Assembly (NCBI GenBank): GCA_902776985.1
Contig: CACYSD010000001.1
Location: 106,758-170,757 of the forward strand
Origin: an uncultured Bacteroidales bacterium
Lineage (GTDB): Bacteria > Bacteroidota > Bacteroidia > Bacteroidales > Bacteroidaceae
Length of the DNA: 64,000 nt
Direction of reading: 5' to 3'
Shown: one piece after another, positions 36,182 to 48,636 of the stretch
Numbering within the stretch: position 1 is the stretch's first letter
Layout: each line of letters starts with the position of its first letter
Position numbers and translations under genes: made by a program
The notes under the pieces: model-generated
Seen by the model: only the letters and a program-made list of their open reading frames with translations
Told to the model about the DNA's origin: nothing
Database searches by the model: none

Positions 36182-38221
36182 TTATTTTACAAGTACTTTC
36201 TTGCCGTTGATAATGTATAGTCCCTTAGTAGGAGCGGTTACTACGCGTCCTGAGATGTCGAAAATCTTGCCGCTTGTAAGAGTTTCAATAGCATTCATAC
36301 TCTCAATTCCTGTTGTATCATCTGCTCCGTTGAAGAAGAGTTCTACACGACCTTTAGCAGAAGAAGGAGTAATCAGAGCCTTATTAACATAAGCCTTGTT
36401 CGCACCAACTGTAATAGCATTTGCTCCAGTAGCGCCTTCTGTATCGTAAAGAGTATTATTACTTAAGATGTAATAGTTTGCACCTGCAGGTGCTGTAATT
36501 GATGAGAATGTACCGATAAGGCCATTGTTAGTTCCCGCAGAAGCTGCATCATATGTATCAAAATCTGCACGGAAGAAATGGACGTTCAGGACGGTTTTTT
36601 CATTATCTTGGCCATTTACATCGGAAGAAATATAAAAATATGGTTTTCCTGCTTCAAGAAGCCCAGAAACCTTGGTCAGGCTAATACTAGCGCCATCTGT
36701 TCCTGCAATGCTATATACCTCACAACCAGCATAAGCAGCTTTATATGGTAGACAGATTGTCCCAAACTTGCCAGTTTCAGTATATTCTCGTTCTAAATCT
36801 CCGCGAACATATAAATCCCATCTTCCACGACTTGTTATCTTTGTATTTGCGTAGTCAGTTAAATACGCTACAGATGGCTGAATGTCACCTGTAATTTCCA
36901 AAGATTTTATATTAAAAATATCTAGACCATTTGATATACGCAACTGATTCAAATCTATAGCTATAATATTCTGACTATTCCATCTGTCAAGCCACATGCC
37001 AGCGCCAGTACCTGCTGCTTGACCATTATAACTATCTCCACGTACTGAATACTCACTGTTATCTTTAATAATTATCTCATGACTGGCATTTGCTGCTGTA
37101 TTTTCAGTAGCAATTACAAGATAATTCCAATTATATAAATCCACAGGTGTATCAAATGTCCATTTACCATTTTCGAAATTATTAACATCAAAAATGGCAT
37201 CGTTTGCGGCAACAGTTAACTTTTCAGGAACACGTGTTACATTAAGAACATAAAATACCCATTCACTTTTACCAAAGAAATTCTCCGTTTTTACAGATCC
37301 ATCTTTTAGATAGGATGTGATTTTGTAAGTATTTTCTTTTCCGTCAACGGCTGTTACGCCAAAGAAACACCCCTGTTCACCACTATCATCTTTTGCAACA
37401 ATATTACGAGTCCAACCAATATCATTTAAGTAACAATTACCGCCATACCAAGGACCTGTATATACAGACGTCCCGTTTCCTTTAAAAGCTTGAATACGAT
37501 ATAGTGTTGAAACTCCATCGGGCATAACAAGCCCCTCATCGTCAGCTTCTGTAATACGAAAACGGTATGTTCCATTATCATTCACTTTACCCATAACAGT
37601 GTTAATAGATGCTGCACGTATTTGATTGTCAGTATTATCGCCGTAAAGTATTGTCTCATCAGCACTCGCAATGCAGACTAAACGGTTTTCGCTAACAATA
37701 GATGAAAAAGATAATTTTGTTCCAGGAACGTATTCATACTCAAAAGGACCGTAAATATAAACATTGGTTATTGAAACAGAAGCGGGATTGTCGTTATCAA
37801 TAGAATGACCATCTGTAGCACTTGTTGATCCCCATATTGTAATATCCGCAAGATTCGAAAAATCAACAGAAGGGTTAGCTGCTTTTAATGCTACAAGGTC
37901 AATATTATTCTCTCCTGCAACAAGATTTACATCTGCGTAATGATCTGTACCATCATTACTTTTAATTCTCAGGCGAACAAAATCGGCATTTTCACTAAAA
38001 TTGGACAATGTGGCGTGCAATGTCGTATAATTGGAAATGTCTGTCGGAAAGTCTGTACCAATTATCGTGTAACCGGAAGTTGCCTTCCATGTCATTGTAC
38101 TAGTGTTTTTATCCCAATCAGCTCCGTAAACCGACCTAAGTGTTCCGTTTGTTGTTAAAGCTTTGAGTTCAGAAATGCCAAAGGCAAACAACAATGCACT
38201 TAATAGTAAAATTTTTTTCAT
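36182..38221 (-). CDS. Secreted T9SS cargo protein of unknown function (beta-rich, possibly carbohydrate-binding)
   Basis: Signal peptide MKKILLLSALLFAFGISELKA. C-terminal ~80 aa (KIFDISGRVVTAPTKGLYIINGKKVLVK) matches the T9SS type-A CTD pattern. 679 aa. Confidence 0.6.
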   Translation of the reverse strand: MKKILLLSALLFAFGISELKALTTNGTLRSVYGADWDKNTSTMTWKATSGYTIIGTDFPTDISNYTTLHATLSNFSENADFVRLRIKSNDGTDHYADVNLVAGENNIDLVALKAANPSVDFSNLADITIWGSTSATDGHSIDNDNPASVSITNVYIYGPFEYEYVPGTKLSFSSIVSENRLVCIASADETILYGDNTDNQIRAASINTVMGKVNDNGTYRFRITEADDEGLVMPDGVSTLYRIQAFKGNGTSVYTGPWYGGNCYLNDIGWTRNIVAKDDSGEQGCFFGVTAVDGKENTYKITSYLKDGSVKTENFFGKSEWVFYVLNVTRVPEKLTVAANDAIFDVNNFENGKWTFDTPVDLYNWNYLVIATENTAANASHEIIIKDNSEYSVRGDSYNGQAAGTGAGMWLDRWNSQNIIAIDLNQLRISNGLDIFNIKSLEITGDIQPSVAYLTDYANTKITSRGRWDLYVRGDLEREYTETGKFGTICLPYKAAYAGCEVYSIAGTDGASISLTKVSGLLEAGKPYFYISSDVNGQDNEKTVLNVHFFRADFDTYDAASAGTNNGLIGTFSSITAPAGANYYILSNNTLYDTEGATGANAITVGANKAYVNKALITPSSAKGRVELFFNGADDTTGIESMNAIETLTSGKIFDISGRVVTAPTKGLYIINGKKVLVK

Positions 38222-38912: not shown

Positions 38913-39035
38913 GTTGTGGGAAAAAAGTTTCACTGTGCTGAAACTTTATTTTCACTGTGCTGAAACAAAAGTTTCTCTGCGGTGAAACTTTTGTTTCACT
39001 CCCACTGAAACTTTTGTTCCAGTGCGAAGAAACCA
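38913..39035. repeat. Array B: five 22-bp-spaced hairpin units GTTTCA-N6-TGAAAC (iteron-like)
   Basis: Units start at about 38927, 38949, 38971, 38994 and 39016. Same 5' flank ttgtgggaaaaaagtttca as array A. Lies ~160 bp upstream of rhaB. Confidence 0.6.
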
Positions 39036-39191
39036 AAAAACGTCTGTTGTATAACGATTAACAAGGAAATAATTGAAGATTATCCAAGATAATTATTCAG
39101 CTTTGAGCACAAAAAAAACGGGAATAGCATAGCTATTGTTAAAAAATAATGTAAATTTGCAGGATACAAACAATAGAAATCAAACTAACTA

Positions 39192-40616
39192 ATGACATCC
39201 AAGTATTTTTTCTGTGTTGACCTCGGTGCTACAAGCGGACGAACGATTCTCGGCAGCATCGTGAACGACAAGTTACAACAACGCGAACTGACTCGTTTCC
39301 CAAATAATATCATACAGACCGGAGGACATTTCTTCTGGGATATCTATGCTCTCTATAACGAGATTATAAAGGGACTGAAGTTGGTTGCCAGCGAAGGCAT
39401 CGAGATTACCTCAATCGGTATCGATACCTGGGGCTGCGACTTTGTGATGATTGGTAAGGACGGCGGCATCCTCCGCAATCCCTACTGCTACCGCGATCCT
39501 CACACCGACGGTGCAATGGAGGAATACTTCAAACTGATTCCAAAGGAGAAAGTGTATGAGAAGACCGGCATTCAGTTCATGCAGTTCAACTCGCTTTTCC
39601 AACTCGCCACGCTGCGCCGTAACCACGACTCGGCTCTGGAGGCAGCAGAGAAGATTCTCTTTATTCCCGATGCTCTGACATACATGCTTACTGGCGAGGC
39701 TGTTTGCGAATACACCGTGCTCAGCACCAGTCAGATGCTGGATCCCCGCACCAAGAGGATTGACAAGGAACTTATCAATGCCATAGGTCTGAAGGAAGAG
39801 CAGTTTGGCAGATATGTGCAACCAGGCGAGGTGGTAGGTGTACTTAGCGAAGAGGTGCAGAAACAGACAGGTCTCGGTGCGGTGCCCGTAGTGGCTGTTG
39901 CCGGACACGACACAGGTAGTGCTGTGGCTGCTGTTCCTGCAGAGGACGAGAGATTTGCCTACCTCAGTTGCGGCACTTGGTCGCTGTTGGGAATCGAAAG
40001 CAAGGATGCTATCATCAACAAGAAGAGTTTTGAGTATAACTTCACTAACGAAGGTGGAATAGAGGGAACAACCCGTTTCCTGAAGAATATCTGCGGAATG
40101 TGGCTGTTGGAAAGGGCAAGGAAGGAGACCCTCCTCCAAGCTTGGCCATCGGACATTAATCAGATTAATCAAGATGCGATGGAGGCGAAACCGTTCCAGT
40201 CGATTATCAATCCAGATGACCCGCGGTTTGCTAATCCACCGTCAATGATTGAGGCTATCCAGAGTTATTGCCGCGAGACAGGTCAGCATGTGCCGGAGAA
40301 CTACAAGGAGATTGCACGCTGTATCTTCGAGAGTCTCGCACAGAGATACAAGGAAGTGCTGGACTACCTGAAAGAACTGGCACCCTTCCCCATCGAGAAA
40401 CTGCATGTCATCGGTGGAGGTACCTACAACCAGTATCTGATGCAGATGACTGCGAACAGCATCGGGCTGCCAGTAGTTACTGGTCCTGTAGAAGGCACCG
40501 CCATCGGTAATATGATGATTCAGGCAAAAGCCGCCGGTCTTGTCAGCGACATCTTCGCCATGCGCCACATCATCGCCAACAGCATCGAACTGAAGACTTA
40601 CCTGCCGGAAAGCTGA
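39192..40616 (+). CDS. rhaB: Rhamnulokinase (FGGY carbohydrate kinase family)
   Basis: N-terminal CVDLGATSGRTILG; FGGY N- and C-domains; 474 aa. Context with rhamnulose-1-P aldolase and a sugar isomerase. Confidence 0.8.
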   Translation: MTSKYFFCVDLGATSGRTILGSIVNDKLQQRELTRFPNNIIQTGGHFFWDIYALYNEIIKGLKLVASEGIEITSIGIDTWGCDFVMIGKDGGILRNPYCYRDPHTDGAMEEYFKLIPKEKVYEKTGIQFMQFNSLFQLATLRRNHDSALEAAEKILFIPDALTYMLTGEAVCEYTVLSTSQMLDPRTKRIDKELINAIGLKEEQFGRYVQPGEVVGVLSEEVQKQTGLGAVPVVAVAGHDTGSAVAAVPAEDERFAYLSCGTWSLLGIESKDAIINKKSFEYNFTNEGGIEGTTRFLKNICGMWLLERARKETLLQAWPSDINQINQDAMEAKPFQSIINPDDPRFANPPSMIEAIQSYCRETGQHVPENYKEIARCIFESLAQRYKEVLDYLKELAPFPIEKLHVIGGGTYNQYLMQMTANSIGLPVVTGPVEGTAIGNMMIQAKAAGLVSDIFAMRHIIANSIELKTYLPES

Positions 40617-40819
40617 GAAGGACTAAGAAATCCTAGGAAATCCTAAGAAATCCTAAGAAATCCTAGGAAATCCTAGGCGGTTCTAGGCTATACTAGGCAA
40701 TCCTAGGAAAGCCTAGGAAAGCCTAGGAAAGCCTAGGAGAACCTAGGAGAACCTAGGAGAACCTAGGCACTTCTAGGCAGACCTAGGCACTCCTATAAGA
40801 GCCTAGAAAAACCTAAAAC
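40617..40819 (+). repeat. Phased 10-bp tandem repeat array 1 (NNCCTAGGNN, about 20 units) immediately after the rhaB stop codon
   Basis: tcctaggaaa tcctaagaaa ... acctaggaga ... all in register with a 10-nt period. The CCTAGG core is palindromic; A/purine tracts are phased at 10 bp. Confidence 0.7.
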
Positions 40820-40866
40820 AATAATAATAATCAACTCATTATTAACTAATAAAAAAAACCAATAAT

Positions 40867-41532
40867 ATGGAATACGAAACCAAAGGGAAAGTCTTGAAAA
40901 AGGCTGTAGTTTGGAAGGATCTCTATATTTATAAAAAGAGCGATACCATCTATCAGCTGACGGTAGAATTCTGTCATCGATATCTCCCTCAATATGGCGA
41001 TCGTACAGTTGATCAGATGGTGCAGGCTGCCCGCAGCTGCAAACAAAACATCGTTGAAGGCAGCGAGGACGGTCAGACAAGCTCTGAAATGGAGATAAAG
41101 CTACTTAACGTAGCACGAGGAAGTTTGCAGGAATTGTGCTCAGACTATAATGACTACATTAACACTCGCCACATATCCCTTTGGTCTCGTGACAACGAGC
41201 GACAGATACAACTTAGGAATTATTGCAAAGCACACAATGACTATAGCGATTACGCTCCGTTGGTTGAGAAAATGAATGACGAAGAATATGCGAATTTGTT
41301 AATCACTCTCTGTCACCAAACTGACAAGATGATGTGCACTTATATTGAGCAATTAGAAAAGAAATTTGTAACTGAGGGAGGCATTAAAGAGCGTATGCGC
41401 GCTGCTCGAACAGGATACCGGAAAGCTCAAGACTCCCACATGGCAGATTTAGAAACAGAAAACAGACAACTCAAAGCCGAAATTCAAGCTTTAAGAGAGA
41501 GAATAAAAGAAATAGAGGCTAAGCTGCCCTAA
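40867..41532 (+). CDS. Four-helix-bundle protein (23S rRNA intervening-sequence protein / Avd-like family) with C-terminal coiled-coil extension
   Basis: VWKDLYIYKKSDTIYQLTVEFCHRY...QMVQAARSCKQNIVEGSED...LNVARGSLQELCSDY matches the four-helix-bundle (TIGR02436-like) pattern. The C-terminus QLKAEIQALRERIKEIEAKL is a coiled coil. Flanked on both sides by CCTAGG arrays. Confidence 0.6.
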   Translation: MEYETKGKVLKKAVVWKDLYIYKKSDTIYQLTVEFCHRYLPQYGDRTVDQMVQAARSCKQNIVEGSEDGQTSSEMEIKLLNVARGSLQELCSDYNDYINTRHISLWSRDNERQIQLRNYCKAHNDYSDYAPLVEKMNDEEYANLLITLCHQTDKMMCTYIEQLEKKFVTEGGIKERMRAARTGYRKAQDSHMADLETENRQLKAEIQALRERIKEIEAKLP

Positions 41533-41540
41533 GGAGAAAT

Positions 41541-41752
41541 AGGAAAAGCTAGGAAATCCTAGGCTATCCTAGGCAGGCCTAGGCAGACCTAGGCAGACCT
41601 AGGAAATCCTAGGCGGTCCTAGGCAATCCTAGAAAAGCCTAGGAAAGCCTAGGAAAGCCTAGGAGAACCTAGAAGAACCTAGAAAAACCTAAGAAAAGCC
41701 TAGAAAAGCCTAGAAAAGCCTAGAAAAATCCAGAAAACCCCAAGAACTAAAA
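41541..41752 (+). repeat. Phased 10-bp tandem repeat array 2 (NNCCTAGGNN, about 20 units; one 11-bp unit, with decay to CCTAGA/CCAGA at the 3' end)
   Basis: ggaaatccta ggctatccta ggcaggccta ggcagaccta ... aaaagcctag aaaagcctag. Ends 12 bp before the isomerase start. Confidence 0.7.
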
Positions 41753-41764
41753 AAAAATACAACA

Positions 41765-43195
41765 ATGAGTAAACCATTAGTAGAAACCAAAGCGAGAGTG
41801 GGTGTGTTCAGCATTGCTTTGCAAGCTTACCTACCACAGTTTCCTCAACTCGTTCCCGAGTTCGAGGCTCAGTATGCGACATTTAAGAAGACGCTGCCAG
41901 AAACAATAGAAATAATTGACGGAGGAATGGTCACGACCAAGGAACAGTCTATGGCTGCCGGCGATAAGTTCCGCTCAGCCGACGTAGACCTTGTTATCCT
42001 TCAGATGCTGACTTACTGCACATCATATAATATGTTGCCAGCAGTTCGCGACTTGGATGTACCTGTAGTCATCGTGAACGTTCAGAAGAAACTGGCTCCA
42101 GAATACGACAAGACAGATATCCCTACCTGGCTCGGTGAACTCTATGCCTGCGGAGCTATAGGTGAGATGGTTGCCGACCTGAACCGTGCAGGCAAACGTT
42201 CAGCAGTAATTACAGGCGTAGTTGAAGGTGGTGATCCTGAAGTTCAAGCAGAAATTGAGGATTGGTGCCGTGCTGCACAGGTTCGCCGCCGTTTCCGCGA
42301 CACCAACATAGCTCAGATTGGACGTCCTTACCCAGGCATGATGGACCTCTATATCGATGAGACAAACCTCTATCACCGTATGTTTGTATATACCAAGCAA
42401 TTTGACTGGGAACAGATGTGGGCTATCGCAGATAATATCACCGATGAAGCTGCTATCAAGGCTAAGGCAGAAGATATCCTCGCCACATTTGACATTGAAG
42501 GCGGAGGAACCATTGAGAAAGTTTGGGATATGGCAAAGTACGTTGTAGCTTTCGAGCAATGGGTAAAGGATGAGAAGTTGGGAATGATTGCCTCACACTA
42601 TGCAGGTTTTGCCCAAGGCGTTGCCGGCAAGCTCGATTCAATGCTTATTCCCGCGTTCTCCATGCTGATCAAGCAACACACCGCTTGCGCAGTGGAAGGC
42701 GACATGAAGGTAGCTATGGCAATGTCGATTCTGAAAACCATTTCCGGCACAGGCACATTGGCTGAGATGTACAGCATAGACTTTCCGAAGGATATCTGCA
42801 TCATCGGTCATAGCGGTTCTGGCGACTTCGACATCTCTCAGGCAAAGAAACCAACGATGAAGATTGTGCCTGTATTCCACGGAAAGACCGGTGGTGGTTA
42901 CCTAACCCAGTTCTATCCTCCAACAGGTCCTGTGACTTATCTCGCTATCACTCAGGACAAGAACGGAGTGTTCAAGTTTGTTGCAGCAGAGGGAGTCAAC
43001 GAAGAAGGCCCTATCTTCACCTTCGGTGATACCAACATGCGCACCAAGTTCTCGCTTCCTTGTCGCGAATTTGTGAACAAATGGAGCGAAGCCGGTCCTA
43101 CACACCACATGGCTGCTGCCGTAGGTCACCACATCGACACCATACTGAAAGTAGCAAAGATCCTGAATATTGAGTGTGACGTCGTTTGTAGATAA
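41765..43195 (+). CDS. L-arabinose isomerase / L-fucose isomerase-family sugar isomerase (probable L-rhamnose-type isomerase of this operon)
   Basis: 476 aa. VDLVILQMLTYCTSYNMLPAVRDLDVPVVIVNVQ...ACGAIGEM resembles the AraA/FucI N-terminal and central domains. Operon context with rhaB and rhaD. Confidence 0.6.
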   Translation: MSKPLVETKARVGVFSIALQAYLPQFPQLVPEFEAQYATFKKTLPETIEIIDGGMVTTKEQSMAAGDKFRSADVDLVILQMLTYCTSYNMLPAVRDLDVPVVIVNVQKKLAPEYDKTDIPTWLGELYACGAIGEMVADLNRAGKRSAVITGVVEGGDPEVQAEIEDWCRAAQVRRRFRDTNIAQIGRPYPGMMDLYIDETNLYHRMFVYTKQFDWEQMWAIADNITDEAAIKAKAEDILATFDIEGGGTIEKVWDMAKYVVAFEQWVKDEKLGMIASHYAGFAQGVAGKLDSMLIPAFSMLIKQHTACAVEGDMKVAMAMSILKTISGTGTLAEMYSIDFPKDICIIGHSGSGDFDISQAKKPTMKIVPVFHGKTGGGYLTQFYPPTGPVTYLAITQDKNGVFKFVAAEGVNEEGPIFTFGDTNMRTKFSLPCREFVNKWSEAGPTHHMAAAVGHHIDTILKVAKILNIECDVVCR

Positions 43196-43275
43196 AAGAC
43201 CCACCTGAAGACCCACCCCGACCCTCAAAGGGAAGACCCACCCCCTTACCCCTCCCTTGTAAGGAGGGGAGTAGT
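43196..43275 (-). repeat. GC-rich G4-motif hairpin element, copy 4 (extended, with three gaagaccca sub-repeats; G-rich on minus strand)
   Basis: Reverse complement contains CTACTCCCCTCCTTACAAGGGAGGGGTAAGGGGGTGGGTCTTC. Confidence 0.55.
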
Positions 43276-43301
43276 TACCTTTTCAAAACAAAAAGAAAAC
43301 A

Positions 43302-43688
43302 TTGCTAATGAACAGAGTTGCTACATATAAAACTGCATCACCCGACAGGTATGACATTCTGCGTGCCTATGCTCGTAAAAACAGAAAAAATGCAACATTA
43401 GCTGAACAGGTTTTGTGGAAACATCTTAGGGGTGGAGAACTAGGCGTAGAATTCCTACGTCAACACATCGTCGGCGATTACATTGTGGATTTTGCATCAC
43501 GGCATGACGGTCTTATTATCGAGATCGATGGTGGCTACCATGCGGAACGCCAACAAGAAGAAGATGATGCTATTCGACAAAAAAATTTGGAACAAATGGG
43601 TTTTCACTTTCTTCGTTTTTCAAATGAAGAAGTTATGTATAATACCGAAGAGGTTTTAAAACAAATAGAAGATTATTTATATGAATAA
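43302..43688 (+). CDS. DUF559 endonuclease-domain protein (Vsr/restriction-endonuclease-like fold)
   Basis: ATLAEQVLWKHLRG...VEFLRQHIVGDYIVDFASRHDGLIIEIDGGYHAERQQEEDDAIRQKNLEQMGFHFLRF matches the DUF559 pattern (D..E.DG..H motif). 128 aa. Inserted between operon genes. Confidence 0.7.
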   Translation: MLMNRVATYKTASPDRYDILRAYARKNRKNATLAEQVLWKHLRGGELGVEFLRQHIVGDYIVDFASRHDGLIIEIDGGYHAERQQEEDDAIRQKNLEQMGFHFLRFSNEEVMYNTEEVLKQIEDYLYE

Positions 43689-45063
43689 GCAAACAAATTC
43701 TAATAATCAATCTACTCCCCGCCCTCACAGGGAGGGGCAAGGGGGAGGGTCTTCTTCTTTGAAGAGTACCCTTGCGGTCTCTCTGAATAATTACCTTGAT
43801 GCGGGAGCAATCGTAGCAGGTTCAAGCGGAATTACCTTGTGGCAGAATTATCTGGGGCTGTCGGAGATGCATCTGGGTTGGCTCAATGCACTAAGTGCTA
43901 ATGCGCTGGGTGCAGCTATCGGAGCAATCATCGGTGGCTTCCTCGCAGATAAGTTCGGACGTAAGTTCATCTTCACATACAATCTGTTGGTGTATATGCT
44001 TGGTGTGCTCATCATCATGCTGTCCATTAGCTATCCCATGCTCCTTTGCGGATTCCTCGTCACAGGTATTTCAGTAGGAGTGGGAGTTCCTGCATCGTGG
44101 ACATATATCTCTGAAAGCAGTGAGGTTCACAACCGCGGCCGCAACATCTGCATCTCACAGATGTCGTGGGGCATCGGACCTATGCTCATCCTCTTCTTCG
44201 GTATGCTCTTTGCACCAGGCGGCTACTGCTACGGTCCTGTAGAATCGCTGGCTCATGCCATCATCGGTGCCGATGCTTCCCAGGCTGCGGTTGAGGTATT
44301 CTCATCGAGAGTAGTGTTCTTCACCCTCTTCGTTGTTGCCTTCATTGCCTGGAACCTCCAACGTCAGTTGCAGGAAAGCGCTGAGTTCGAAGCCAACAAA
44401 CAGAAAGGCAATAGCGGTATGGTTGAAAACATCAAGATGCTGTTCACCAACCGCATTGCAGTCAAGGCTGTGGTATTCCTTGCAACAATCTATTTGACTT
44501 GGAACCTCGTTGCCTCAGTTATGGGATTCTTCATGCCTCATGTATATGAGACTGCAGGCGGGCTCAGCAACGAAACCGCAAATATGCTTAGTTGCATAAG
44601 CTGGGTATTCGTTGTAGTTACCACCCTCATCATCTCGTTCTTAGTTGACAAGGTTGCACACCGTGTGTTCTACGTCTTCGGTCTGGCAGCTGCACTGACA
44701 GCATGGATTCTCGTCATTGGCGGAAGTATTACCAGCATTGCCGGCATTTGGGTGTTCACCATCCTGTGGGGTATCAACAACGGCAGCAGCGTACAGATAT
44801 TCTATGCACTTTGGGGCAGTGAGCTTTTCCCTGCGAAATTCCGTGCCGGTGCACAGGGACTGATGTTTTTCATCGTCCGTGGTCTCTCAGCGCTGTGGGG
44901 ACTGATCTTCACGCTTATCTACGGAGAGAACGGCGAAGGCTTCACCATCGCAGCCTACTGCATGATTGGTCTCCTCGTTATCTCTCTCGTCGTCGGTTTC
45001 ATCGGTGCCCCCAACACCCGCGGCAAATCGCTGGAACAGATTACAAAGGAAAGATATGGGTAG
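43681..45063 (+). CDS. MFS-family sugar transporter (probable rhamnose/deoxy-sugar permease)
   Basis: 12 predicted transmembrane helices and the MFS motif GGFLADKFGRK. The annotated first ~25 codons (..STPRPHREGQGGGSSS) are the translation of the hairpin repeat; the true start may be downstream. Confidence 0.7.
   Translation: MNKQTNSNNQSTPRPHREGQGGGSSSLKSTLAVSLNNYLDAGAIVAGSSGITLWQNYLGLSEMHLGWLNALSANALGAAIGAIIGGFLADKFGRKFIFTYNLLVYMLGVLIIMLSISYPMLLCGFLVTGISVGVGVPASWTYISESSEVHNRGRNICISQMSWGIGPMLILFFGMLFAPGGYCYGPVESLAHAIIGADASQAAVEVFSSRVVFFTLFVVAFIAWNLQRQLQESAEFEANKQKGNSGMVENIKMLFTNRIAVKAVVFLATIYLTWNLVASVMGFFMPHVYETAGGLSNETANMLSCISWVFVVVTTLIISFLVDKVAHRVFYVFGLAAALTAWILVIGGSITSIAGIWVFTILWGINNGSSVQIFYALWGSELFPAKFRAGAQGLMFFIVRGLSALWGLIFTLIYGENGEGFTIAAYCMIGLLVISLVVGFIGAPNTRGKSLEQITKERYG
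43712..43754 (+). repeat. GC-rich G4-motif hairpin element, copy 5
   Basis: CTACTCCCCGCCCTCACAGGGAGGGGCAAGGGGGAGGGTCTTC. Confidence 0.55.
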
Positions 45064-45091
45064 AAGACCCTCCCGTCAGGGAGGGAGTAAG
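45063..45091. repeat. GC-rich hairpin element, truncated copy 6
   Basis: gaagaccctcccgtcagggagggagtaag has the same ends (GAAGACCC...GGGAGTAG) but lacks the central G-tracts. Confidence 0.45.
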
Positions 45092-45094
45092 TGA

Positions 45095-45232
45095 AGTGAT
45101 AGGAAAACCTAGAAAAGCCTAGGAGAGCCTAGGAAAGCCTAGAAAAGCCTAGGAAAACCTAGGAGAACCTAGGAGAGCCTAGGAAAACCTAGGAGAACCT
45201 AGGCAGACCTAGGCACTCCTAGAAGAACTTAA
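45095..45232 (+). repeat. Phased 10-bp tandem repeat array 3 (NNCCTAGGNN, about 13 units), upstream of rhaD
   Basis: aaaacctaga aaagcctagg agagcctagg aaagcctaga ... agacctaggc actcctagaa. Confidence 0.7.
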
Positions 45233-45260
45233 AAACTCAAAAACTAAAAAACTAAATAAA

Positions 45261-46082
45261 ATGAAAAGTATTCTTGAAAACAGACCTGGATTGCAGGCAG
45301 AAATTGATAAAGTGGCGGAAGTAGCCGGTTATCTCTGGCAGAAGGGATGGGCTGAGCGCAACGGTGGTAATATCACCGTGAATATCACTGAGTATGCGGA
45401 CGACGAAATCCGCAATATGCCTGCTATTAGTGAAGTCTTCCAGATTGGCACAACACTGCCCTATCTCAAAGGCTGTTATTTCTACTGCAAAGGCACAGGC
45501 AAACGTATGCGCGACCTCGCACGCTGGCCTATGCAGAACGGTAGTATCATCCGCATTCTCGACGACTGCAAAAGCTACGTCATCATTGCAGATGAGCCTG
45601 TGATGCCAACATCGGAACTGCCTTCACACCTGTCCATGCATGACTACCTCATAGGTTCGGGAAGCTGCTATAAGGCTTCGCTCCACACCCACCCTATCGA
45701 ACTGATTGCAATGAGCCATAACAGAGGAATGTTGAGAAAGGATGTTATGACTCATCTTCTCTGGTCTATGATTCCAGAAACTTTGGCGTTTGCACCATTA
45801 GGATTGGGAATCGTGCAGTACGAACTGCCAGGCAGCGTGAAATTGGCAAAAGCTACACTGGAAAAAATCAAGGACTACGATGTAGTGCTATGGGAGAAGC
45901 ACGGAGTATGTGCTGTAGGAACAGACATCATGGATGCCTTCGACCAGGTTGATGTGCTCAACAAGTCTGCTAATATCTATATGTGTGCAAAGAACATGGG
46001 CTTCACTCCTGACGGCATGACCGACGAAGCTATGCGCGAAGTACAGCAAGTCTTCAAACTTCCGAAGAAGAGACCATGCTAA
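45261..46082 (+). CDS. rhaD: Rhamnulose-1-phosphate aldolase (class II aldolase/adducin family)
   Basis: WAERNGGNITVNI and HTHP metal-binding motif region. 273 aa. Confidence 0.8.
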   Translation: MKSILENRPGLQAEIDKVAEVAGYLWQKGWAERNGGNITVNITEYADDEIRNMPAISEVFQIGTTLPYLKGCYFYCKGTGKRMRDLARWPMQNGSIIRILDDCKSYVIIADEPVMPTSELPSHLSMHDYLIGSGSCYKASLHTHPIELIAMSHNRGMLRKDVMTHLLWSMIPETLAFAPLGLGIVQYELPGSVKLAKATLEKIKDYDVVLWEKHGVCAVGTDIMDAFDQVDVLNKSANIYMCAKNMGFTPDGMTDEAMREVQQVFKLPKKRPC

Positions 46083-48547
46083 AGTGAAATTTCCTGACCC
46101 TGAAGAAGTGGTGAGGAGAAATAGATTCGAATAGTTCCCGTGCGGACATCAGTGTCCCAAGCGGGAACTGTTCCGTTATTACGGGCATTACGCATCATAG
46201 CGCCTTTAGCTATGTAGGCTACAAGACGACCGTTCTTCACACGGCAGCGAGGCTGGTTCTTGTCACGAGTATCACGGATATCGCCGTTCTCCATGCCAAG
46301 CAGACGGGCATTGCCCTGTACACGGCAGGAAATCTCGTTGTCGGCAAGAGTCACGACTTTACCATCTTCATCAACAACCTCGACAAGAATCTGCACCACA
46401 TCACCATTGCCAGCAAGCTGTTTCTTGTCGGCAGTGACACGAAGTGCGTAAGGGCGTCCGGTTGTGGCTATCTCTGCCGAAGCACCGTCAACCTCGCAAC
46501 GAAGTGTTCCCGGAGCGTATTCCACATCCCAATAAAGTATGTTGGTAGCCTCATCACGCTGTGGGTCCCCTCCGATTGGAGAACCGTTAAGAAGTAGGTG
46601 TGCCGACTGTGCATTGGTGTAGCACACCACACGTACACGCTGACCTATCTCGTAGTTCCAAACCGCAGGAGCATACTGACTCACGTAGCCGCCAGCGTTA
46701 TTGCGACGTCCGCGCTGCTGCATCTGTGGATAGGTTCCGATATAGCACATCGGAGTCTCACTCCAGAGCGACGCACGGTAATAACCGTTCGGTTTAATCT
46801 GACCGGCGAGGTCAAGCAGACCGGCTTCACTACCTCGTGCCGGCCACGGTCCGCTTTCTCCAAGATAGTCAATACCTGTCCACAGGAACTGACCGAAGAT
46901 ATGTTCATTGTCAGTTACGGCACGCCATGCAGCCAAATCGTGACGGTTCTCGCTTCCGTAAATCACACGTTTGGGATATTTAGCATGGTCTTCTCCGTAA
47001 CGGCTTTCGGTGTAGTTATATCCAACCACATCGACTGCTTCAGGATAAGCGGTCTCGTTCGACATCACCACACCAGCCAAGGCTCCGGTAACAGCACGGG
47101 AGGAGTCGATGCCACGTACGATTTTGGACAAACGCTTGGCAATCTCTCCGATTCGTTCTGCACGAGGAGCATCTGACTTGAATCCGCCATAGATGGGCTG
47201 CGTCATACTCTTGTCGCCATTGAGCACAGGATGGCTGTATGGGTCGTTTGGATAATCCACCTCATTGCCTATGCTCCACATGAAGATTGAAGGATGGCAG
47301 CGATCACGACGAACCATATCAGCTACGTCACGGTCAATCCATTCCTCGAAATAGTCGAACGTTCCTTCAAAACCAGGCGTTCCCTGATTCCATCCCTTCA
47401 ACCACTTGCGTTTGGGAAATTCCCATTCGTCGCTGGCCTCATCCATAACAAGGAGTCCGAGAGAGTCACACAACTCATAAACCATAGGTGCATGTGGATT
47501 ATGACTCATGCGAATGGCATTTACGCCTAAAGATTTCAGGGTCTGCAGACGGGTACGCCACACAGCAGCAGGAACAGCTGTACCCAGCACGCCTGCATCA
47601 TCGTGCAAGCAAACACCCTTAACCTTCATCCATTTGCCGTTGAGCGCAAAACCACGGTCGGGTGAGAAGGTCAGAGTACGGATGCCAAGAGAAACAACCG
47701 AACGGTCGATGTCGTTACCGTCTTTCTGCAAACGGGTAACAATTTTATAAAGGTAGGGATTGGCGAGTGTCCACAACTGTGTATTCTTAATCTGTACAGT
47801 TGCAGTCTGTCGCTGCTCAGAAGGAATCTTCACCTTAGCCGTTCCGACAACTTTTCCTGACGCATCGTAAATCTCAACGATTGCTGCATAGTCAGCACCT
47901 CCAGCTGTGGCCTGCACATCCACCTCAACAGTGGCATTGCTGCCAGAAAGTTTCTTGACTCTCCATGCACTACCCCACTGAGCCAGATGGACTTCGGGTG
48001 CACTGATAATCCACACATTGCGATTGATGCCGCTGCCTGTGTACCATCGGGAATCGTTCTGACGAGAGTGATCCACACGGACTGCCAGCACATTGTCGCC
48101 TGAGCGGTTGAGATGAGGAGTCAGTTCATAGAGGAACGAGGCAAATCCGCTGGGACGATAACCCAGCTTCACTCCGTTCAGATAAACTGTAGAACGGTTA
48201 TAGACACCTTCAAAATAGATATAGATTCTTTTTCCTGTTGCCAAAGCAAGACTGTCGGGAGAGAAATGGCAACGATACAACCCTATTCCACCAGGAAGAT
48301 AACCCTGACACGAACCGCGGTCAGGCGACATAGGTAGCGAAACACTCCAGTCATGAGGAATGTGAACACGTTGCCAGCGGCTGTCGTTGTAATCGGTATT
48401 CACTGCGGCAGAGTCATCTGCAAGTTGGAACAGCCAACCTTCATTAAGCCGACTACTTTCGCCAAAAGAAACAGGACTCTGCTGAGCCAACATAGTAAAA
48501 GAAGGCATCACGAATGCCATCAACAGGGAAAGGAAAAGCTTTTTCAT
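46079..48547 (-). CDS. Glycoside hydrolase family 2 (beta-galactosidase/beta-glucuronidase-like)
   Basis: Signal peptide; N-terminal sugar-binding domain (RWQRVHIPHDWSV), Ig-like domain and TIM-barrel with WSIGNE catalytic region. 822 aa. Confidence 0.8.
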   Translation of the reverse strand: MKKLFLSLLMAFVMPSFTMLAQQSPVSFGESSRLNEGWLFQLADDSAAVNTDYNDSRWQRVHIPHDWSVSLPMSPDRGSCQGYLPGGIGLYRCHFSPDSLALATGKRIYIYFEGVYNRSTVYLNGVKLGYRPSGFASFLYELTPHLNRSGDNVLAVRVDHSRQNDSRWYTGSGINRNVWIISAPEVHLAQWGSAWRVKKLSGSNATVEVDVQATAGGADYAAIVEIYDASGKVVGTAKVKIPSEQRQTATVQIKNTQLWTLANPYLYKIVTRLQKDGNDIDRSVVSLGIRTLTFSPDRGFALNGKWMKVKGVCLHDDAGVLGTAVPAAVWRTRLQTLKSLGVNAIRMSHNPHAPMVYELCDSLGLLVMDEASDEWEFPKRKWLKGWNQGTPGFEGTFDYFEEWIDRDVADMVRRDRCHPSIFMWSIGNEVDYPNDPYSHPVLNGDKSMTQPIYGGFKSDAPRAERIGEIAKRLSKIVRGIDSSRAVTGALAGVVMSNETAYPEAVDVVGYNYTESRYGEDHAKYPKRVIYGSENRHDLAAWRAVTDNEHIFGQFLWTGIDYLGESGPWPARGSEAGLLDLAGQIKPNGYYRASLWSETPMCYIGTYPQMQQRGRRNNAGGYVSQYAPAVWNYEIGQRVRVVCYTNAQSAHLLLNGSPIGGDPQRDEATNILYWDVEYAPGTLRCEVDGASAEIATTGRPYALRVTADKKQLAGNGDVVQILVEVVDEDGKVVTLADNEISCRVQGNARLLGMENGDIRDTRDKNQPRCRVKNGRLVAYIAKGAMMRNARNNGTVPAWDTDVRTGTIRIYFSSPLLQGQEISL

Positions 48548-48565
48548 AAGCGAATTAATTCTGGA

Positions 48566-48622
48566 TGTCGTTATGACGATATGACGTAATAACTATATAA
48601 CGTTATATCGATATGACGCTAA
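48566..48622. promoter_or_regulatory. Conserved ~50-bp intergenic module with palindrome TATAACGTTATA, copy 2 (upstream of the GH2 gene)
   Basis: cgttatgacgatatgacgtaataactatataacgttatatcgatatgacgct. Confidence 0.35.
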
Positions 48623-48636
48623 AACGTCCTTAAGGT

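What the first reader, a model, noticed from the sequence alone, without database searches (positions are those of the whole stretch)
39192..46082. A rhamnose-type catabolic operon in which every intergenic spacer is occupied by repeats or small selfish-looking genes
The operon order is rhaB (kinase), CCTAGG array, a four-helix-bundle (Avd/IVS-like) gene, CCTAGG array, an AraA/FucI-family isomerase, a G4 hairpin, a DUF559 endonuclease-like gene, a G4 hairpin (in frame with the MFS start), an MFS permease, a G4 hairpin plus CCTAGG array, and rhaD (aldolase). Both 4HB/IVS-protein and DUF559 families are known to occur as stand-alone genes scattered through intergenic regions. Here each is flanked by a specific repeat type. 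This suggests two distinct insertion modules (array-4HB-array and hairpin-DUF559-hairpin) that have colonised a single operon without disrupting its ORFs. The isomerase is also unusual for a rhamnose cluster, being AraA/FucI-type rather than TIM-barrel RhaA-type.
Basis: partly seen in the sequence, partly recalled or inferred. Interest (0 to 1): 0.75.

Follow-up and report, generated by a model that had tools for sequence, protein, structure and literature searches.

The report
Repeat-bracketed lodger genes in an operon
A rumen Prevotella sugar operon carries two small extra genes, each wrapped in its own kind of DNA repeat. The same gene-plus-repeat units recur across Bacteroidales, which points to two apparently undescribed families of gene cassettes that slot between host genes without breaking them.

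Summary
All 30 CCTAGG sites in the 64-kb window lie in three 10-nt tandem arrays inside the rhaB / isomerase / MFS / rhaD operon. The 'G4 hairpin' is a ~43-nt C/G-rich arm that flanks the DUF559 gene as an inverted repeat.

Orthologous operons at 85-91% isomerase identity have 11-90-nt spacers and neither small gene.

Both associations hold well beyond this locus:
- 73 of 80 loci with a four-helix-bundle 'suffix' gene have an adjacent 9-10-nt array with a CTA/TAG core. That is 105 of 117 arrays in 470 kb, against 9 in 317 kb of control sequence.
- 54 of 67 DUF559 loci have flanking inverted hairpin arms, against 1 of 215 shifted controls.

Both genes point the same way as their neighbours (43:3 and 41:0).

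The DUF559 unit fits its site exactly. The left arm abuts or supplies the upstream stop codon. The right arm appears to be read in frame, from a start codon inside the cassette, as a leader peptide on the downstream host protein (MFS and RF3 here; ArgC, Fmt, LeuC elsewhere).

The best reading is two selfish or semi-domesticated cassette families. Mobility and biochemistry are inferred, not shown. I found no description in the searchable literature.

The parts
38926..39000 (+). 22-nt tandem repeat (3.4 copies) upstream of the operon; possibly a regulator binding site
   Evidence: TRF. An orthologous operon (L110) has an AraC-type regulator gene upstream. Function not tested.
39152..39159 (+). 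TAAATTTG: the only Bacteroidetes-type -7 promoter box (TAnnTTTG) in any spacer of the operon, 33 nt before the rhaB ATG
   Evidence: The only other + strand match in 39000-46100 is inside the isomerase ORF (42379). A motif match only.
39192..40616 (+). rhamnulokinase-type FGGY kinase (host gene)
   Evidence: TIGR02627 529.8 bits, cutoff 527.95.
40623..40806 (+). Array 1: about 18 units of 10 nt, core CCTAGG/CCTAAG with a variable 4-nt spacer. It starts 7 nt after the rhaB stop codon.
   Evidence: A ~100-nt stretch has the same order of unit variants as array 2. Unit number differs between strains: spacer 250 versus 208 nt.
40867..41532 (+). Four-helix-bundle 'suffix-domain' gene (221 aa): 4HB core, conserved FVTEGGIKERM.AARTGYR motif, C-terminal coiled coil
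   Evidence: AF2 model pLDDT 81; best PDB matches are 2gsc and 2rld, both PF05635 proteins.
41540..41746 (+). Array 2: about 19 units of 10 nt. It begins directly at the 4HB stop codon. This 3' array is the part that travels with the gene.
41765..43195 (+). FucI/AraA-superfamily sugar isomerase (host gene); neither RhaA nor RhaI type
   Evidence: PMC3870299.
43198..43231 (+). Two partial tandem copies of the 5' part of the arm (AAGACCCACC.., GAAGACCCACCCCGACCC..), starting 2 nt after the isomerase stop codon
   Evidence: (D4).
43232..43276 (+). Arm A (left inverted repeat): GAAGACCCACCCCC-TTA-[CCCCTCC loop GGAGGGG]-AGTAGTT
   Evidence: I1. In sister strains the sequence diverges exactly after ..GAGTAGTT.
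43308..43688 (+). DUF559 / Vsr-like PD-(D/E)xK nuclease gene (126 aa)
   Evidence: PF04480 1.5e-32. The family profile hits PDB 3hrl (3.5e-21) and 3r3p, the I-Bth0305I homing endonuclease (1.3e-7). E72, D74, H78 and D87 are invariant in 28 homologues.
43681..43711 (+). Cassette-borne ATG plus a polar leader (MNKQTNSNNQS) overlapping the DUF559 stop; opens the reading frame that runs through arm B into the MFS gene
43712..43754 (+). Arm B (right inverted repeat; G-rich strand is the sense strand; four G-tracts), in frame inside the MFS ORF (..TPRPHREGQGGGSS..)
   Evidence: The RNA fold pairs arm A with arm B, z = -5.6.
43755..45063 (+). MFS sugar transporter body (host gene). Orthologues start MAKSGSLKST.., which aligns with residue ~26 of this ORF.
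45063..45090 (+). Short solo arm-A-like hairpin (GAAGACCCTCCCGTCAGGGAGGGAGTAA); its first base is the last base of the MFS stop codon
   Evidence: (D4, D14).
45100..45228 (+). Array 3: solo CCTAGG array (about 13 units) with no 4HB gene. Its 3' end (..CAGA-CCTAGG-CACT..) matches the 3' end of array 1.
45261..46082 (+). rhamnulose-1-phosphate aldolase-type class II aldolase (host gene)
   Evidence: NF002963 297.7 bits, cutoff 170.
25444..25597 (-). DUF559-less doublet of the same element between rmlD and prfC. Arm A (25597-25555) carries the rmlD stop codon (the TAG of GAGTAG). A 45-nt spacer follows, then an ATG at 25512, then arm B (25473-25444) in frame inside the RF3 N-terminus.
   Evidence: There is no other in-frame start codon before the conserved [16 protein letters not shown].
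32730..32770 (+). Solo arm (B orientation) in the 5' leader of a tsaC-type gene, 4 nt before its ATG

Best explanation
A compact kinase-isomerase-MFS-aldolase operon has been colonised by two unrelated families of small 'lodger' cassettes that are widespread in Bacteroidales chromosomes. Each consists of one conserved gene plus its own cis repeat.

Cassette 1
- It is a 4HB 'suffix-domain' gene: PF05635 fold plus a C-terminal coiled coil.
- Its reading frame runs straight into a tandem array of 9-10-nt units with a CTA/TAG core, and the array usually supplies the stop codon.
- In this window a homologous array also lies upstream, giving ~100-nt direct repeats.
- The third array, before rhaD, looks like a solo copy: a footprint or a landing pad.
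- Inferred: arrays give portable homology. Gain would be by recombination into an array, and loss by array-array recombination that leaves a solo array.
- Inferred: arrays form strong, degenerate hairpins in the transcript.
- Whether the protein binds the arrays is a guess.

Cassette 2
- It is a DUF559 (Vsr / EDxHD-type PD-(D/E)xK) nuclease gene between two ~40-nt inverted arms, each a C-tract followed by a G/C hairpin.
- It replaces the intergenic spacer exactly. Arm A begins at, or provides, the stop codon of the upstream gene.
- An ATG at the end of the DUF559 gene opens a frame that reads through arm B into codon ~2-7 of the downstream gene.
- Shown by sequence: in several loci the host gene then has no start codon of its own.
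- Inferred consequence: the host gene now depends on the cassette, so the arms persist after the nuclease gene is lost (rmlD/prfC doublet; lipoprotein variant).
- Inferred: the nuclease recognises or cuts the arm sequences and spreads by homing-like repair or by arm-directed insertion. Solo arms and doublets are its non-autonomous derivatives, analogous to MITEs or REPINs.

Both cassettes appear to rely on host operon transcription.
For: Insertion
- Insert-free orthologous operons.
- Strain polymorphism at the same slot and array-length variation among contigs that carry an identical isomerase.

Association
- 73 of 80 4HB loci have an adjacent array, and 105 of 117 arrays lie within 400 nt of the gene. 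Controls have 9 arrays in 317 kb.
- CTA/TAG occurs in 113 of 127 unit consensuses.
- The 4HB stop codon is inside the array in 38 of 66 loci, and the stop is TAG in 40 of 66.
- DUF559: inverted-repeat score >= 30 in 54 of 67 loci, against 1 of 215 controls.
- A perfect hairpin stem of >= 6 bp in 50 of 56 arms with 21 different stem sequences, against 5% of shuffles.

Orientation
- Same direction as both neighbours versus opposite: 43 to 3 (4HB) and 41 to 0 (DUF559).
- No promoter box in the spacers.

Precise fit
- The downstream ORF is open through arm B in 32 of 35 loci, with an in-frame ATG upstream of the arm in 25 of 35.
- Host N-termini (ArgC, Fmt, LeuC, GDP-fucose synthase, MnmA, RF3, MFS) start right after arm B.
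- The upstream stop codon sits at the start of arm A or at its 3' end in 21 of 27 loci.

Nuclease
- The profile hits the I-Bth0305I homing endonuclease domain. Catalytic-type residues are invariant.
- PMC3424549 places DUF559 with Vsr and I-Bth0305I.

Movement
- 4HB genes 85-92% identical in DNA sit in unrelated contexts (L048/L065, L080/L085, L087/L098, L009/L021). Homology starts at the ATG and runs into the 3' array.
- DUF559 genes are more conserved than their flanks: L129/L131 96% versus 80% and 70%; L135/L141 93% versus 81% and 85%.
- Neighbours of the 4HB gene come from 126 different families.
Against: - No transposition, cleavage or binding has been observed.
- No target-site duplication was seen for either cassette.
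- The 4HB protein has no recognisable catalytic or DNA-binding domain. The bZIP-like hits are sub-threshold coiled-coil noise.
- Near-identical DUF559 copies were found almost only at orthologous sites. The same host junction (upstream of argC) carries diverged copies in many species, which fits long vertical residence as well as homing.
- The hairpin slot in this very operon holds a lipoprotein gene in sister strains, so the arms are not exclusive to DUF559.
- Short tandem repeats of other types (8-nt ATAACG-like) are common in spacers of these genomes even without 4HB.
- The 80 + 80 loci are the best-scoring hits and include orthologous sets, for example about 15 type I R-M operons and 7 argC loci. 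They are therefore not independent events.
- The arms contain no stop codon in any frame, so 'open through arm B' alone is weak evidence. The argument rests on the missing downstream start codons and the excess of ATGs.
Confidence: 0.6

Rival explanations
1. Domesticated regulatory modules. The repeats are host cis-elements acting in the transcript, and the small proteins are their trans-acting partners. The A:B stem and the array hairpins would serve as RNase III processing sites, mRNA stabilisers, translational-coupling or insulator devices. They would be kept for host benefit and inherited vertically rather than spreading selfishly.
For: - Arm A pairs with arm B in predicted RNA folds, z = -5.6 and -5.3.
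- Array RNA folds at -90 kcal/mol, z = -9.2.
- Strict co-orientation with operons.
- Both proteins are under strong purifying selection.
- DUF559 sits at the same argC junction in many species.
- Arrays resemble terminators only on the antisense strand.
- P. nigrescens has a free-standing 4HB gene with its own -7 box and a 3' hairpin array.
Against: - Orthologous operons function without any of it.
- The host contexts have no common theme: 126 neighbour families.
- Strain-level presence/absence and cargo swapping.
- A nuclease fold shared with a homing endonuclease is an odd choice for an RNA regulator.
- RNase III cleavage of the A:B stem would cut the cassette ATG off the downstream ORF.
Confidence: 0.22
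2. Passive cargo at repeat hot spots. The arrays and hairpin arms are independent dispersed repeats of the REP or microsatellite type that make intergenic DNA recombinogenic. Any small gene can land or be swapped there, and 4HB and DUF559 are simply the commonest passengers.
For: - Lipoprotein genes occupy the same arm-flanked slot in sister strains.
- Solo arms and a solo array exist.
- Upstream arrays of closely related 4HB copies are unrelated, CCCGACAAG versus GGTTTGAG.
- Other short tandem repeats fill spacers in relatives.
Against: - Seen from the gene side the association is near-total (73 of 80; 54 of 67). It persists across genera while the repeat sequence co-varies with the protein clade.
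- Homology between 4HB copies in different contexts runs from the ATG into the 3' array.
- The 4HB ORF ends inside the array.
- Arrays are about 50 times denser next to 4HB genes than in control Bacteroidales DNA.
Confidence: 0.12
3. Defence accessories. The 4HB gene is an accessory of type I restriction-modification systems and DUF559 is a restriction or repair nuclease. Their presence in the sugar operon is incidental.
For: - About 15-18 of 80 4HB loci lie between hsdS and hsdR.
- PF05635 genes have been noted inside cas loci (PMC3936711).
- DUF559 gives weak PADLOC hits to nuclease domains of defence proteins.
Against: - No PADLOC hit for the 4HB protein, and only domain-level hits at E >= 5e-5 for DUF559.
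- About 80% of 4HB loci and essentially all DUF559 loci are in housekeeping or metabolic operons.
- No partner methyltransferase lies next to DUF559 here.
Confidence: 0.05

Closest known systems
REP / REPIN - RAYT systems (Proteobacteria)
   Same: A single-copy-type nuclease or transposase gene is flanked by two inverted copies of a short GC-rich palindromic element. The same element is scattered as solo copies and inverted doublets in extragenic spacers, and its sequence co-varies with the protein clade. The arm even ends in ..GTAG.
   Different: The protein is a PD-(D/E)xK Vsr-like nuclease, not an HUH/Y1 (IS200/IS605-type) transposase. The GTAG lies 3' of the stem rather than 5'. The arms overlap host stop and start codons and are translated. 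Only 3 solo or doublet sites occur per 64 kb here, whereas REPs number in the hundreds per genome.
Free-standing homing endonuclease genes (T4 seg/mob) and the EDxHD family (I-Bth0305I, PDB 3r3p)
   Same: Homologous catalytic domain (profile E = 1.3e-7). A small nuclease gene is lodged between conserved host genes. Presence/absence and cargo replacement occur between close strains. The gene is more conserved than its flanks in some pairs.
   Different: It is not in an intron, intein or phage genome. It is bracketed by a structured inverted repeat that also occurs without the gene. It has no extra DNA-binding domain (126 aa in total). Cleavage is untested.
MITEs that are co-transcribed and fuse to genes (Neisseria Correia elements; enterobacterial RU-1/2/3, PMC2759123)
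   Same: Short terminal-inverted-repeat elements in spacers of operons. They are transcribed with host genes, able to form long RNA stems, and sometimes inserted in frame at gene ends.
   Different: Here a candidate cognate nuclease gene sits inside the full-length copy. The element systematically donates the start codon and a leader peptide to the downstream gene.
23S rRNA intervening sequences that encode PF05635 ('S23p', IVS) proteins; PF05635 genes inside cas operons
   Same: The same protein fold family. A small ORF of unknown function is inserted into a highly conserved transcription unit and flanked by sequences able to form RNA stems. Distribution is sporadic (PMC11270868, PMC3936711).
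   Different: It is inserted in mRNA operons, not rRNA (no rRNA in the window). It carries the Bacteroidales-specific suffix domain and coiled coil. It is flanked by tandem 9-10-nt arrays rather than a simple inverted repeat.
Avd of diversity-generating retroelements
   Same: A distant member of the same four-helix-bundle superfamily.
   Different: No adjacent reverse transcriptase; the neighbours are sugar-catabolic genes. No template/variable repeat pair was seen in the flanking sequence read.
Integron gene cassettes
   Same: Promoterless single-gene units, co-oriented, each with a structured repeat at its 3' end. They can be gained, lost and swapped.
   Different: No integrase gene is adjacent in the operon. 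The cassettes are dispersed in housekeeping operons rather than arrayed at an attI site. The 3' element is a tandem array or a terminal inverted repeat, not an attC site.

Membership tests
PF05635 / TIGR02436 / TIGR04258 four-helix-bundle (suffix) proteins | HMM match above the curated cutoff | tested here: met
   PF05635 34.2 bits (cutoff 33.8), TIGR02436 34.7 (24), TIGR04258 76.6 (40). Homologues are named 'four helix bundle suffix domain-containing protein'.
PF05635 / TIGR02436 / TIGR04258 four-helix-bundle (suffix) proteins | Four-helix-bundle fold like Xcc0516 or BT_0352 | tested here: met
   AF2 model pLDDT 81. Top Foldseek PDB hits are 2gsc and 2rld (prob ~1.0, TM-target 0.66-0.77), but the E-values are only 0.03-0.1.
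23S rRNA intervening sequence (IVS) | Located inside a 23S rRNA gene | tested here: not met
   No Rfam family, rRNA included, reaches the gathering score anywhere in the window. The neighbours are rhaB and an isomerase.
DGR accessory protein Avd | Adjacent reverse transcriptase and TR/VR repeat pair | tested here: not met
   Adjacent genes are a kinase and an isomerase. The flanking repeats are 10-nt arrays, not TR/VR. The rest of the window was not scanned for a reverse transcriptase.
DUF559 / Vsr-like PD-(D/E)xK nucleases | HMM match and conserved acidic/His core | tested here: met
   PF04480 112 bits (cutoff 20.6). Profile versus PDB 3hrl, 3.5e-21. E72, D74, H78 and D87 invariant in 28 sequences.
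EDxHD homing endonucleases (I-Bth0305I) | Homologous catalytic domain | tested here: met
   Profile hit to 3r3p 'mobile intron protein', E = 1.3e-7. Same clade in PMC3424549.
EDxHD homing endonucleases (I-Bth0305I) | Encoded within a self-splicing intron or intein; cleaves the intron-less allele | tested here: not met
   The gene is free-standing between two host ORFs. No group I or II intron is called by Rfam. Cleavage cannot be tested here.
REP-RAYT / REPIN | Gene flanked by inverted palindromic repeats that also occur dispersed | tested here: met
REP-RAYT / REPIN | The associated protein is an HUH Y1 (IS200/IS605-like) transposase | tested here: not met
   The protein is DUF559 / PD-(D/E)xK.
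Terminal-inverted-repeat transposon / MITE | Terminal inverted repeats | tested here: met
   43-nt arms, 84% complementary here. The same holds generally.
Terminal-inverted-repeat transposon / MITE | Target-site duplication and a transposase of a known family | tested here: inconclusive
   No direct repeat is evident outside the arms in the window copies; the inverted repeat simply extends a few nt further (reading). No Pfam transposase domain. No systematic search for target-site duplications was done.
Integron cassette | attC site plus a nearby tyrosine integrase and attI | tested here: not met
   None of the six operon genes or its two neighbours is an integrase. The cassettes are dispersed in unrelated operons.
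L-rhamnose catabolic operon (RhaB/RhaA/RhaD type) | rhamnulokinase and rhamnulose-1-P aldolase equivalogs | tested here: met
   TIGR02627 and NF002963 above cutoff. The orthologous operon L114 lies next to GH106 (alpha-L-rhamnosidase family) and GH28 genes.
L-rhamnose catabolic operon (RhaB/RhaA/RhaD type) | RhaA or RhaI type isomerase | tested here: not met
   Only weak FucI/AraA/SftI hits (30-43 bits against cutoffs of 622-700), and no PDB sequence hit. The substrate is untested.

The most novel reading that the evidence does not exclude
Both units are new classes of selfish genetic element.

(i) A DUF559 nuclease cassette whose inverted hairpin arms replace an intergenic spacer base for base. 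It donates the stop codon to the upstream gene and the start codon plus a leader peptide to the downstream gene, which is often essential (RF3, ArgC, Fmt, LeuC). The host then cannot lose the element cleanly. This would be an 'addiction by start-codon capture' strategy, with the nuclease homing on, or mobilising, the arms.

(ii) A four-helix-bundle (IVS-protein family) cassette that carries a helically phased TAG-core tandem array as its cis site. This would give the first experimental handle on what PF05635 proteins do. Their function has been unknown since their discovery in 23S rRNA intervening sequences.
Probability: 0.4. Interest if true: 0.9.

Novelty: new variant of a known kind. Interest (0 to 1): 0.8.

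Why it matters
- PF05635 'IVS proteins' and DUF559 are very large families of unknown function. There are more than 7900 clusters (at 90% identity) of the suffix subfamily alone. Tying each to a specific, easily recognised cis repeat turns 'hypothetical protein' into testable hypotheses about protein-repeat binding, cleavage and recombination.
- The DUF559 unit shows how an element can sit between genes of an operon at apparently no cost and then become irremovable, by taking over the neighbour's start codon. This bears on how selfish DNA persists in streamlined bacterial genomes. It also bears on annotation: N-termini of RF3, ArgC, Fmt and MFS genes in Prevotella are extended by repeat-encoded peptides.
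- Both repeats may fragment metagenome assemblies. Most homologues sit on 0.5-2-kb contigs, and several contigs end at the arms. They are therefore likely under-represented in MAG-based gene catalogues of rumen and gut Bacteroidales.
- The operon itself points to a third, non-orthologous candidate L-rhamnose (or related deoxy-sugar) isomerase, shared between Prevotella and Firmicutes.

Tried and rejected
- Rfam, whole window at gathering thresholds: nothing. Neither repeat is a curated RNA family.
- PADLOC and PHROGs: no hit for the 4HB protein, and only weak domain-level hits for DUF559. A defence or phage origin is not supported.
- IMG/VR scans: no 4HB-suffix relative in 2.9 million viral contigs, and only 30-40% identical DUF559 relatives. 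PLSDB: a single 4HB hit on a 568-kb Prevotella nigrescens replicon. Phages and plasmids are therefore not evident vehicles.
- bZIP-like DNA binding by the 4HB C-terminus: all hits are below Pfam cutoffs and cover the zipper rather than the basic region. I treat this as a generic coiled coil.
- RNAalifold on 56 arms: the alignment could not keep stems of different lengths in register (5 pairs, covariation term -0.15). I replaced it with a per-sequence stem test against shuffles.
- The local hairpin alone is not exceptional against shuffles (z = -0.8 and -1.3). The long A:B pairing is what stands out.
- 'One array split by the insertion': rejected for this window. Arrays 1 and 2 share the same order of unit variants, so they are direct duplicates rather than complementary halves. 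In other loci no unique register was detectable.
- 'Arrays supply stop codons in all frames': true for a 10-nt period, but not for the equally common 9-nt arrays, so it is not a general rationale.
- The sigma-70 promoter scan is uninformative for Bacteroidetes. I used the TAnnTTTG box instead.
- Eight literature searches found no description of either gene-repeat unit. Subscription-only papers were not searched.

Full report
WHAT IS THERE

The + strand of 39192-46082 carries six ORFs:
- an FGGY kinase that passes the rhamnulokinase equivalog cutoff;
- a 221-aa four-helix-bundle (4HB) protein;
- a 476-aa isomerase with only weak FucI/AraA/SftI similarity;
- a 126-aa DUF559 protein;
- an MFS sugar transporter;
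- a class II aldolase that passes a rhamnulose-1-phosphate aldolase cutoff.

TRF finds three arrays of 10-nt units, at 40623-40806, 41540-41746 and 45100-45228. Every one of the 30 CCTAGG sites in the 64-kb window lies in these arrays; shuffles give 8.6 +/- 2.9 and never more than 17. CTAG is otherwise almost absent, with 11 sites outside the arrays.

The 'G4 hairpins' are copies of one ~43-nt element. The copies at 43232-43274 and 43712-43754 are inverted and 84% complementary, and they bracket the DUF559 gene. Partial or solo copies lie at 43198-43231, 45063-45090, 25444-25473, 25555-25597 and 32730-32770.

ARE THESE INSERTS?

Eleven contigs in public assemblies encode an identical isomerase. 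Eight places were retrieved, and all seven that extend upstream of the isomerase carry the 4HB gene.
- The arrays differ by whole units between strains. The rhaB-4HB spacer is 250 or 208 nt, and the 4HB-isomerase spacer is 232, 230, 222 or 200 nt.
- The slot after the isomerase holds DUF559, a 216-aa lipoprotein or a related 224-aa lipoprotein.
- The sequence diverges exactly after ...GGAGGGGAGTAGTT of the left arm. The right arm and the MFS gene are the same in all.

More distant orthologues, at 85-91% isomerase identity, have compact operons with neither small gene, no CCTAGG array and no C/G arm:
- L114: GH28, GH106, kinase, 31 nt, isomerase, 20 nt, MFS, 30 nt, aldolase.
- L110: an AraC-type regulator, then spacers of 17 and 11 nt.
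- L196: spacers of 43 and 38 nt.
- L106: spacers of 90 and 73 nt.

The simplest reading is gain in the lineage of the window.

THE 4HB UNIT ACROSS GENOMES

The protein belongs to the NCBIfam 'four helix bundle suffix' subfamily (TIGR04258). It has more than 7900 clusters (at 90% identity) of ~220-aa relatives that are about 75% identical, mostly on 1-2-kb contigs. Long stretches are invariant, and there is a C-terminal coiled coil. An AlphaFold model (pLDDT 81) is most similar to the PF05635 structures 2gsc and 2rld.

A scan of one genome per GTDB species returned 587 relatives. The 80 best come from Prevotella, Bacteroidaceae, Paludibacteraceae, Alloprevotella, Hoylesella, Hallella and Porphyromonas.
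- 73 of the 80 have a tandem array of period 8-11 within 400 nt of the gene, and 33 have one on both sides. The periods are 9 nt (59 arrays) and 10 nt (53 arrays).
- 105 of the 117 such arrays in 470 kb lie next to the gene.
- 317 kb of unrelated Bacteroidales DNA holds 9 arrays, all short.

The repeated core differs between loci: CCTAGG, CTATAG, CATAGG/CCTATG, ATAGAC/GTCTAT, GCTAGC and others. CTA/TAG is nevertheless present in 113 of 127 unit consensuses. Non-palindromic cores occur downstream of the gene as a forward set followed by an inverted set, so the ability to form hairpins is kept.

The ORF usually runs into the array. The stop codon lies inside it in 38 of 66 loci, and the stop is TAG in 40 of 66.

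Copies that are 85-92% identical in DNA sit in unrelated contexts. In the pair L048/L065, homology starts at the ATG and continues into the 3' array, while the upstream repeats are of unrelated types. The travelling unit is therefore the gene plus its 3' array.

In the window the upstream array shares a ~100-nt stretch with the downstream one, with the same order of unit variants (98% over the best 50 nt). This is the pattern expected from recombination into a resident array or from duplication. Array 3, before rhaD, shares its 3' end with array 1 and looks like a solo copy.

Neighbouring genes belong to 126 families. The hsdS/hsdR junction of type I restriction-modification operons accounts for about a fifth of the loci.

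THE DUF559 UNIT ACROSS GENOMES

664 relatives were found, many on 0.5-1-kb contigs. A metagenome scan gave 498 relatives, and the best 80 were analysed.
- The upstream and downstream 220 nt contain an inverted repeat scoring >= 30 in 54 of 67 loci, against 1 of 215 shifted controls.
- The arms differ in sequence between protein clades but keep one plan: (A)AG(A/C)CCC, a C-tract, then a C-arm / loop / G-arm hairpin, usually ending AGT(A/G).
- 50 of 56 arms contain a perfect stem of >= 6 bp, with 21 different stem sequences, against 5% of shuffles.
- The family profile matches the solved DUF559 protein 3hrl (3.5e-21) and the catalytic domain of the homing endonuclease I-Bth0305I (3r3p, 1.3e-7). 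This agrees with the classification in PMC3424549. E72, D74, H78 and D87 are invariant.

A PRECISE FIT BETWEEN HOST GENES

Both small genes point the same way as both neighbours far more often than the opposite way: 43 versus 3 for 4HB, and 41 versus 0 for DUF559. The only Bacteroidetes -7 box in a spacer of the operon is the one before rhaB.

For DUF559 the fit is exact to the base.
- The upstream gene's stop codon abuts or overlaps the first bases of arm A (TAA|AGCCC.., TAG|ACCC..), or it is the TAG/TAA at the arm's 3' end. This holds in 21 of 27 loci.
- In the window, the isomerase and MFS stops abut arm copies, and rmlD ends at the TAG of an arm.
- On the other side, an ATG at or near the DUF559 stop opens a frame that reads through arm B into the downstream gene. 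The frame is open in 32 of 35 loci, with an in-frame ATG upstream of the arm in 25 of 35. In 14 loci there is no ATG in the 120 nt after the arm.
- The translated leaders are alike: M, a polar N/Q/T-rich stretch, then ..(S/T)P(L/S)P.REG.GG.S. They are joined to the recognisable second to seventh residues of ArgC, Fmt, LeuC, GDP-fucose synthase, MnmA and others.

In the window, the MFS ORF begins MNKQTNSNNQSTPRPHREGQGGGSS-SLKST, whereas orthologues begin MAKSGSLKST. All three cargo variants keep an in-frame ATG upstream of arm B.

Between rmlD and prfC there is a DUF559-less doublet. It runs arm A, 45 nt, ATG, then arm B in the same frame, and there is no other start codon before the conserved [16 protein letters not shown] of RF3.

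One caveat applies. The arms contain no stop codon in any frame, so openness alone is weak evidence. The missing alternative starts and the excess of ATGs carry the argument.

RNA LEVEL (PREDICTED ONLY)

- If co-transcribed, arm A pairs with arm B in both the minimum-energy and the centroid structures. This closes a loop that holds DUF559, or in the doublet the prfC start (z = -5.6 and -5.3).
- Array RNA folds at -90 kcal/mol (z = -9.2) into many alternative hairpins made of 6-bp CCUAGG stems.
- On the antisense strand the arrays resemble a row of weak intrinsic terminators. On the sense strand they do not.

INTERPRETATION

I commit to the reading that these are two families of lodger cassettes, each a gene with its own cis repeat, that entered a compact operon.

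Shown:
- the associations;
- the insert-free orthologues;
- strain polymorphism;
- co-orientation;
- junction precision;
- purifying selection on both proteins;
- nuclease homology;
- similar 4HB copies in unrelated contexts.

Inferred:
- DUF559 acts on the arms, by homing-type repair or arm-directed insertion.
- Solo arms and doublets are non-autonomous derivatives.
- Start-codon capture makes the arms irremovable.
- Arrays mediate gain and loss of the 4HB gene by recombination.
- The 4HB protein recognises the arrays.

Some DUF559 genes are clearly more conserved than their flanks: 96% versus 80% and 70%, and 93% versus 81% and 85%. This is the pattern expected of homing, but the sample is small.

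Against a purely selfish view:
- near-identical DUF559 copies were otherwise found at orthologous sites;
- the argC junction carries diverged copies in many species;
- the arm-flanked slot can hold another gene.

A domesticated, regulatory role remains a serious rival, at about 0.2.

COMPARISON WITH KNOWN SYSTEMS

The DUF559 unit works like a REP/RAYT or MITE system and like a free-standing homing endonuclease gene. It fails a defining feature of each: it has no HUH transposase, it is not in an intron or intein, and no target-site duplication was seen.

The 4HB unit recalls PF05635 ORFs in 23S rRNA intervening sequences and inside cas operons (PMC11270868, PMC3936711). It differs in that it is not in rRNA, has no reverse transcriptase next to it, and is defined by a tandem array.

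Neither repeat matches an Rfam family. Neither gene is found on viral contigs in close form. Eight full-text searches found no description of either unit.

I rate it as a new variant of known kinds of element, with a real chance (about 0.4) that it deserves to be called new.

SIDE POINT: THE ISOMERASE

It is neither RhaA nor RhaI, the only two L-rhamnose isomerase types in the comparative study PMC3870299. It has no sequence relative in the PDB. It is about 85% identical between Prevotella and Lachnospiraceae, Clostridia and Solobacterium MAGs. Its genomic company (GH106, GH28, an AraC-type regulator, RhaB-like and RhaD-like genes) fits rhamnose or a related deoxy sugar. The substrate is untested.

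LIMITS

- The 80 + 80 loci are the top-scoring hits and include orthologous sets, so the counts are not independent events.
- Gene neighbours were called from ORFs, not from annotation.
- All statements about RNA and translation are predictions.

Noticed in passing
window 27023-27063, 48565-48626; L106 5910-5977 and 7482-7538; L196 6366-6403: A second kind of spacer repeat: 8-nt tandem units built on ATAACG (ACGTTATA, TATAACGA, CATAACGA). They fill intergenic spacers in this genome and in the insert-free orthologous operons. They are unrelated to 4HB genes.
   Followed up: partly
window 1-64000: CTAG is almost absent outside the three arrays: 11 sites in about 63 kb at 46% GC. CCTAGG is absent altogether outside them. 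The arrays therefore concentrate a tetranucleotide that the genome otherwise avoids.
   Followed up: partly
window 40623-40806, 41540-41746, 45100-45228 (minus strand): Read on the antisense strand, the arrays look like rows of weak intrinsic terminators (CCTAGG-NNNN-CCTAGG followed by T-rich spacers). On the sense strand the spacers are A/G-rich and they do not. This may act as a one-way block to antisense transcription.
   Followed up: no
window 41765-43195 and homologues P0175, P0196, P0208, P0215, P0228: The isomerase is about 85% identical between Prevotella and Lachnospiraceae, Pseudobutyrivibrio, Solobacterium and Clostridia MAGs. This suggests recent transfer of the gene or operon across phyla in the rumen or gut.
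   Followed up: no
window 36182-38221 (minus strand): A 679-aa ORF upstream of the operon has no Pfam or NCBIfam hit. In sister strains it is replaced or altered (593-aa and 596-aa ORFs, and a 138-aa ORF in L002/L003), so the operon's upstream flank is also variable.
   Followed up: no
window 38926-39000: A 22-nt unit (AGTTTCACTGTGCTGAAACTTT, itself partly palindromic) is repeated 3.4 times about 150 nt upstream of the rhaB promoter box. It is a candidate operator for an AraC-type regulator, which is present in the orthologue L110 but was not seen next to the operon here.
   Followed up: no
window 49840-57834 and 57843-63923 (minus strand): Two very large adjacent ORFs of 2664 and 2026 aa. The first carries a Peptidase_M26_N hit in the precomputed annotation of L099/L100.
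   Followed up: no
L114 4442-4496: A 7-nt tandem repeat (CACCCAT, about 7 copies) fills the spacer between the GH106 gene and the kinase in an orthologous operon. It is another example of spacers built from short tandem repeats in this clade.
   Followed up: no
L196 3555-4957: The kinase gene of the 91%-identity orthologous operon is called as two ORFs (FGGY_N and FGGY_C). This is either a frameshift or an assembly error.
   Followed up: no
L144, L131, L178 (metagenome loci): Some DUF559 loci carry many tandem copies of the arm-like motif. L144 has 22 motif hits outside the immediate flanks, and L131 has copies about every 62 nt downstream. The arms can therefore themselves amplify into arrays.
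   Followed up: no
L001 1-90, L005 1-388: A HepT / nucleotidyltransferase toxin-antitoxin pair lies a few kb upstream of the operon in sister strains.
   Followed up: no
window 9892-10048: A 9/12/33/42-nt periodic repeat (GCTACTGAAGAAGCT...) with a period divisible by 3. It is probably a coding repeat for an acidic Ala/Thr/Glu-rich protein segment. It is unrelated to the arrays discussed here.
   Followed up: no
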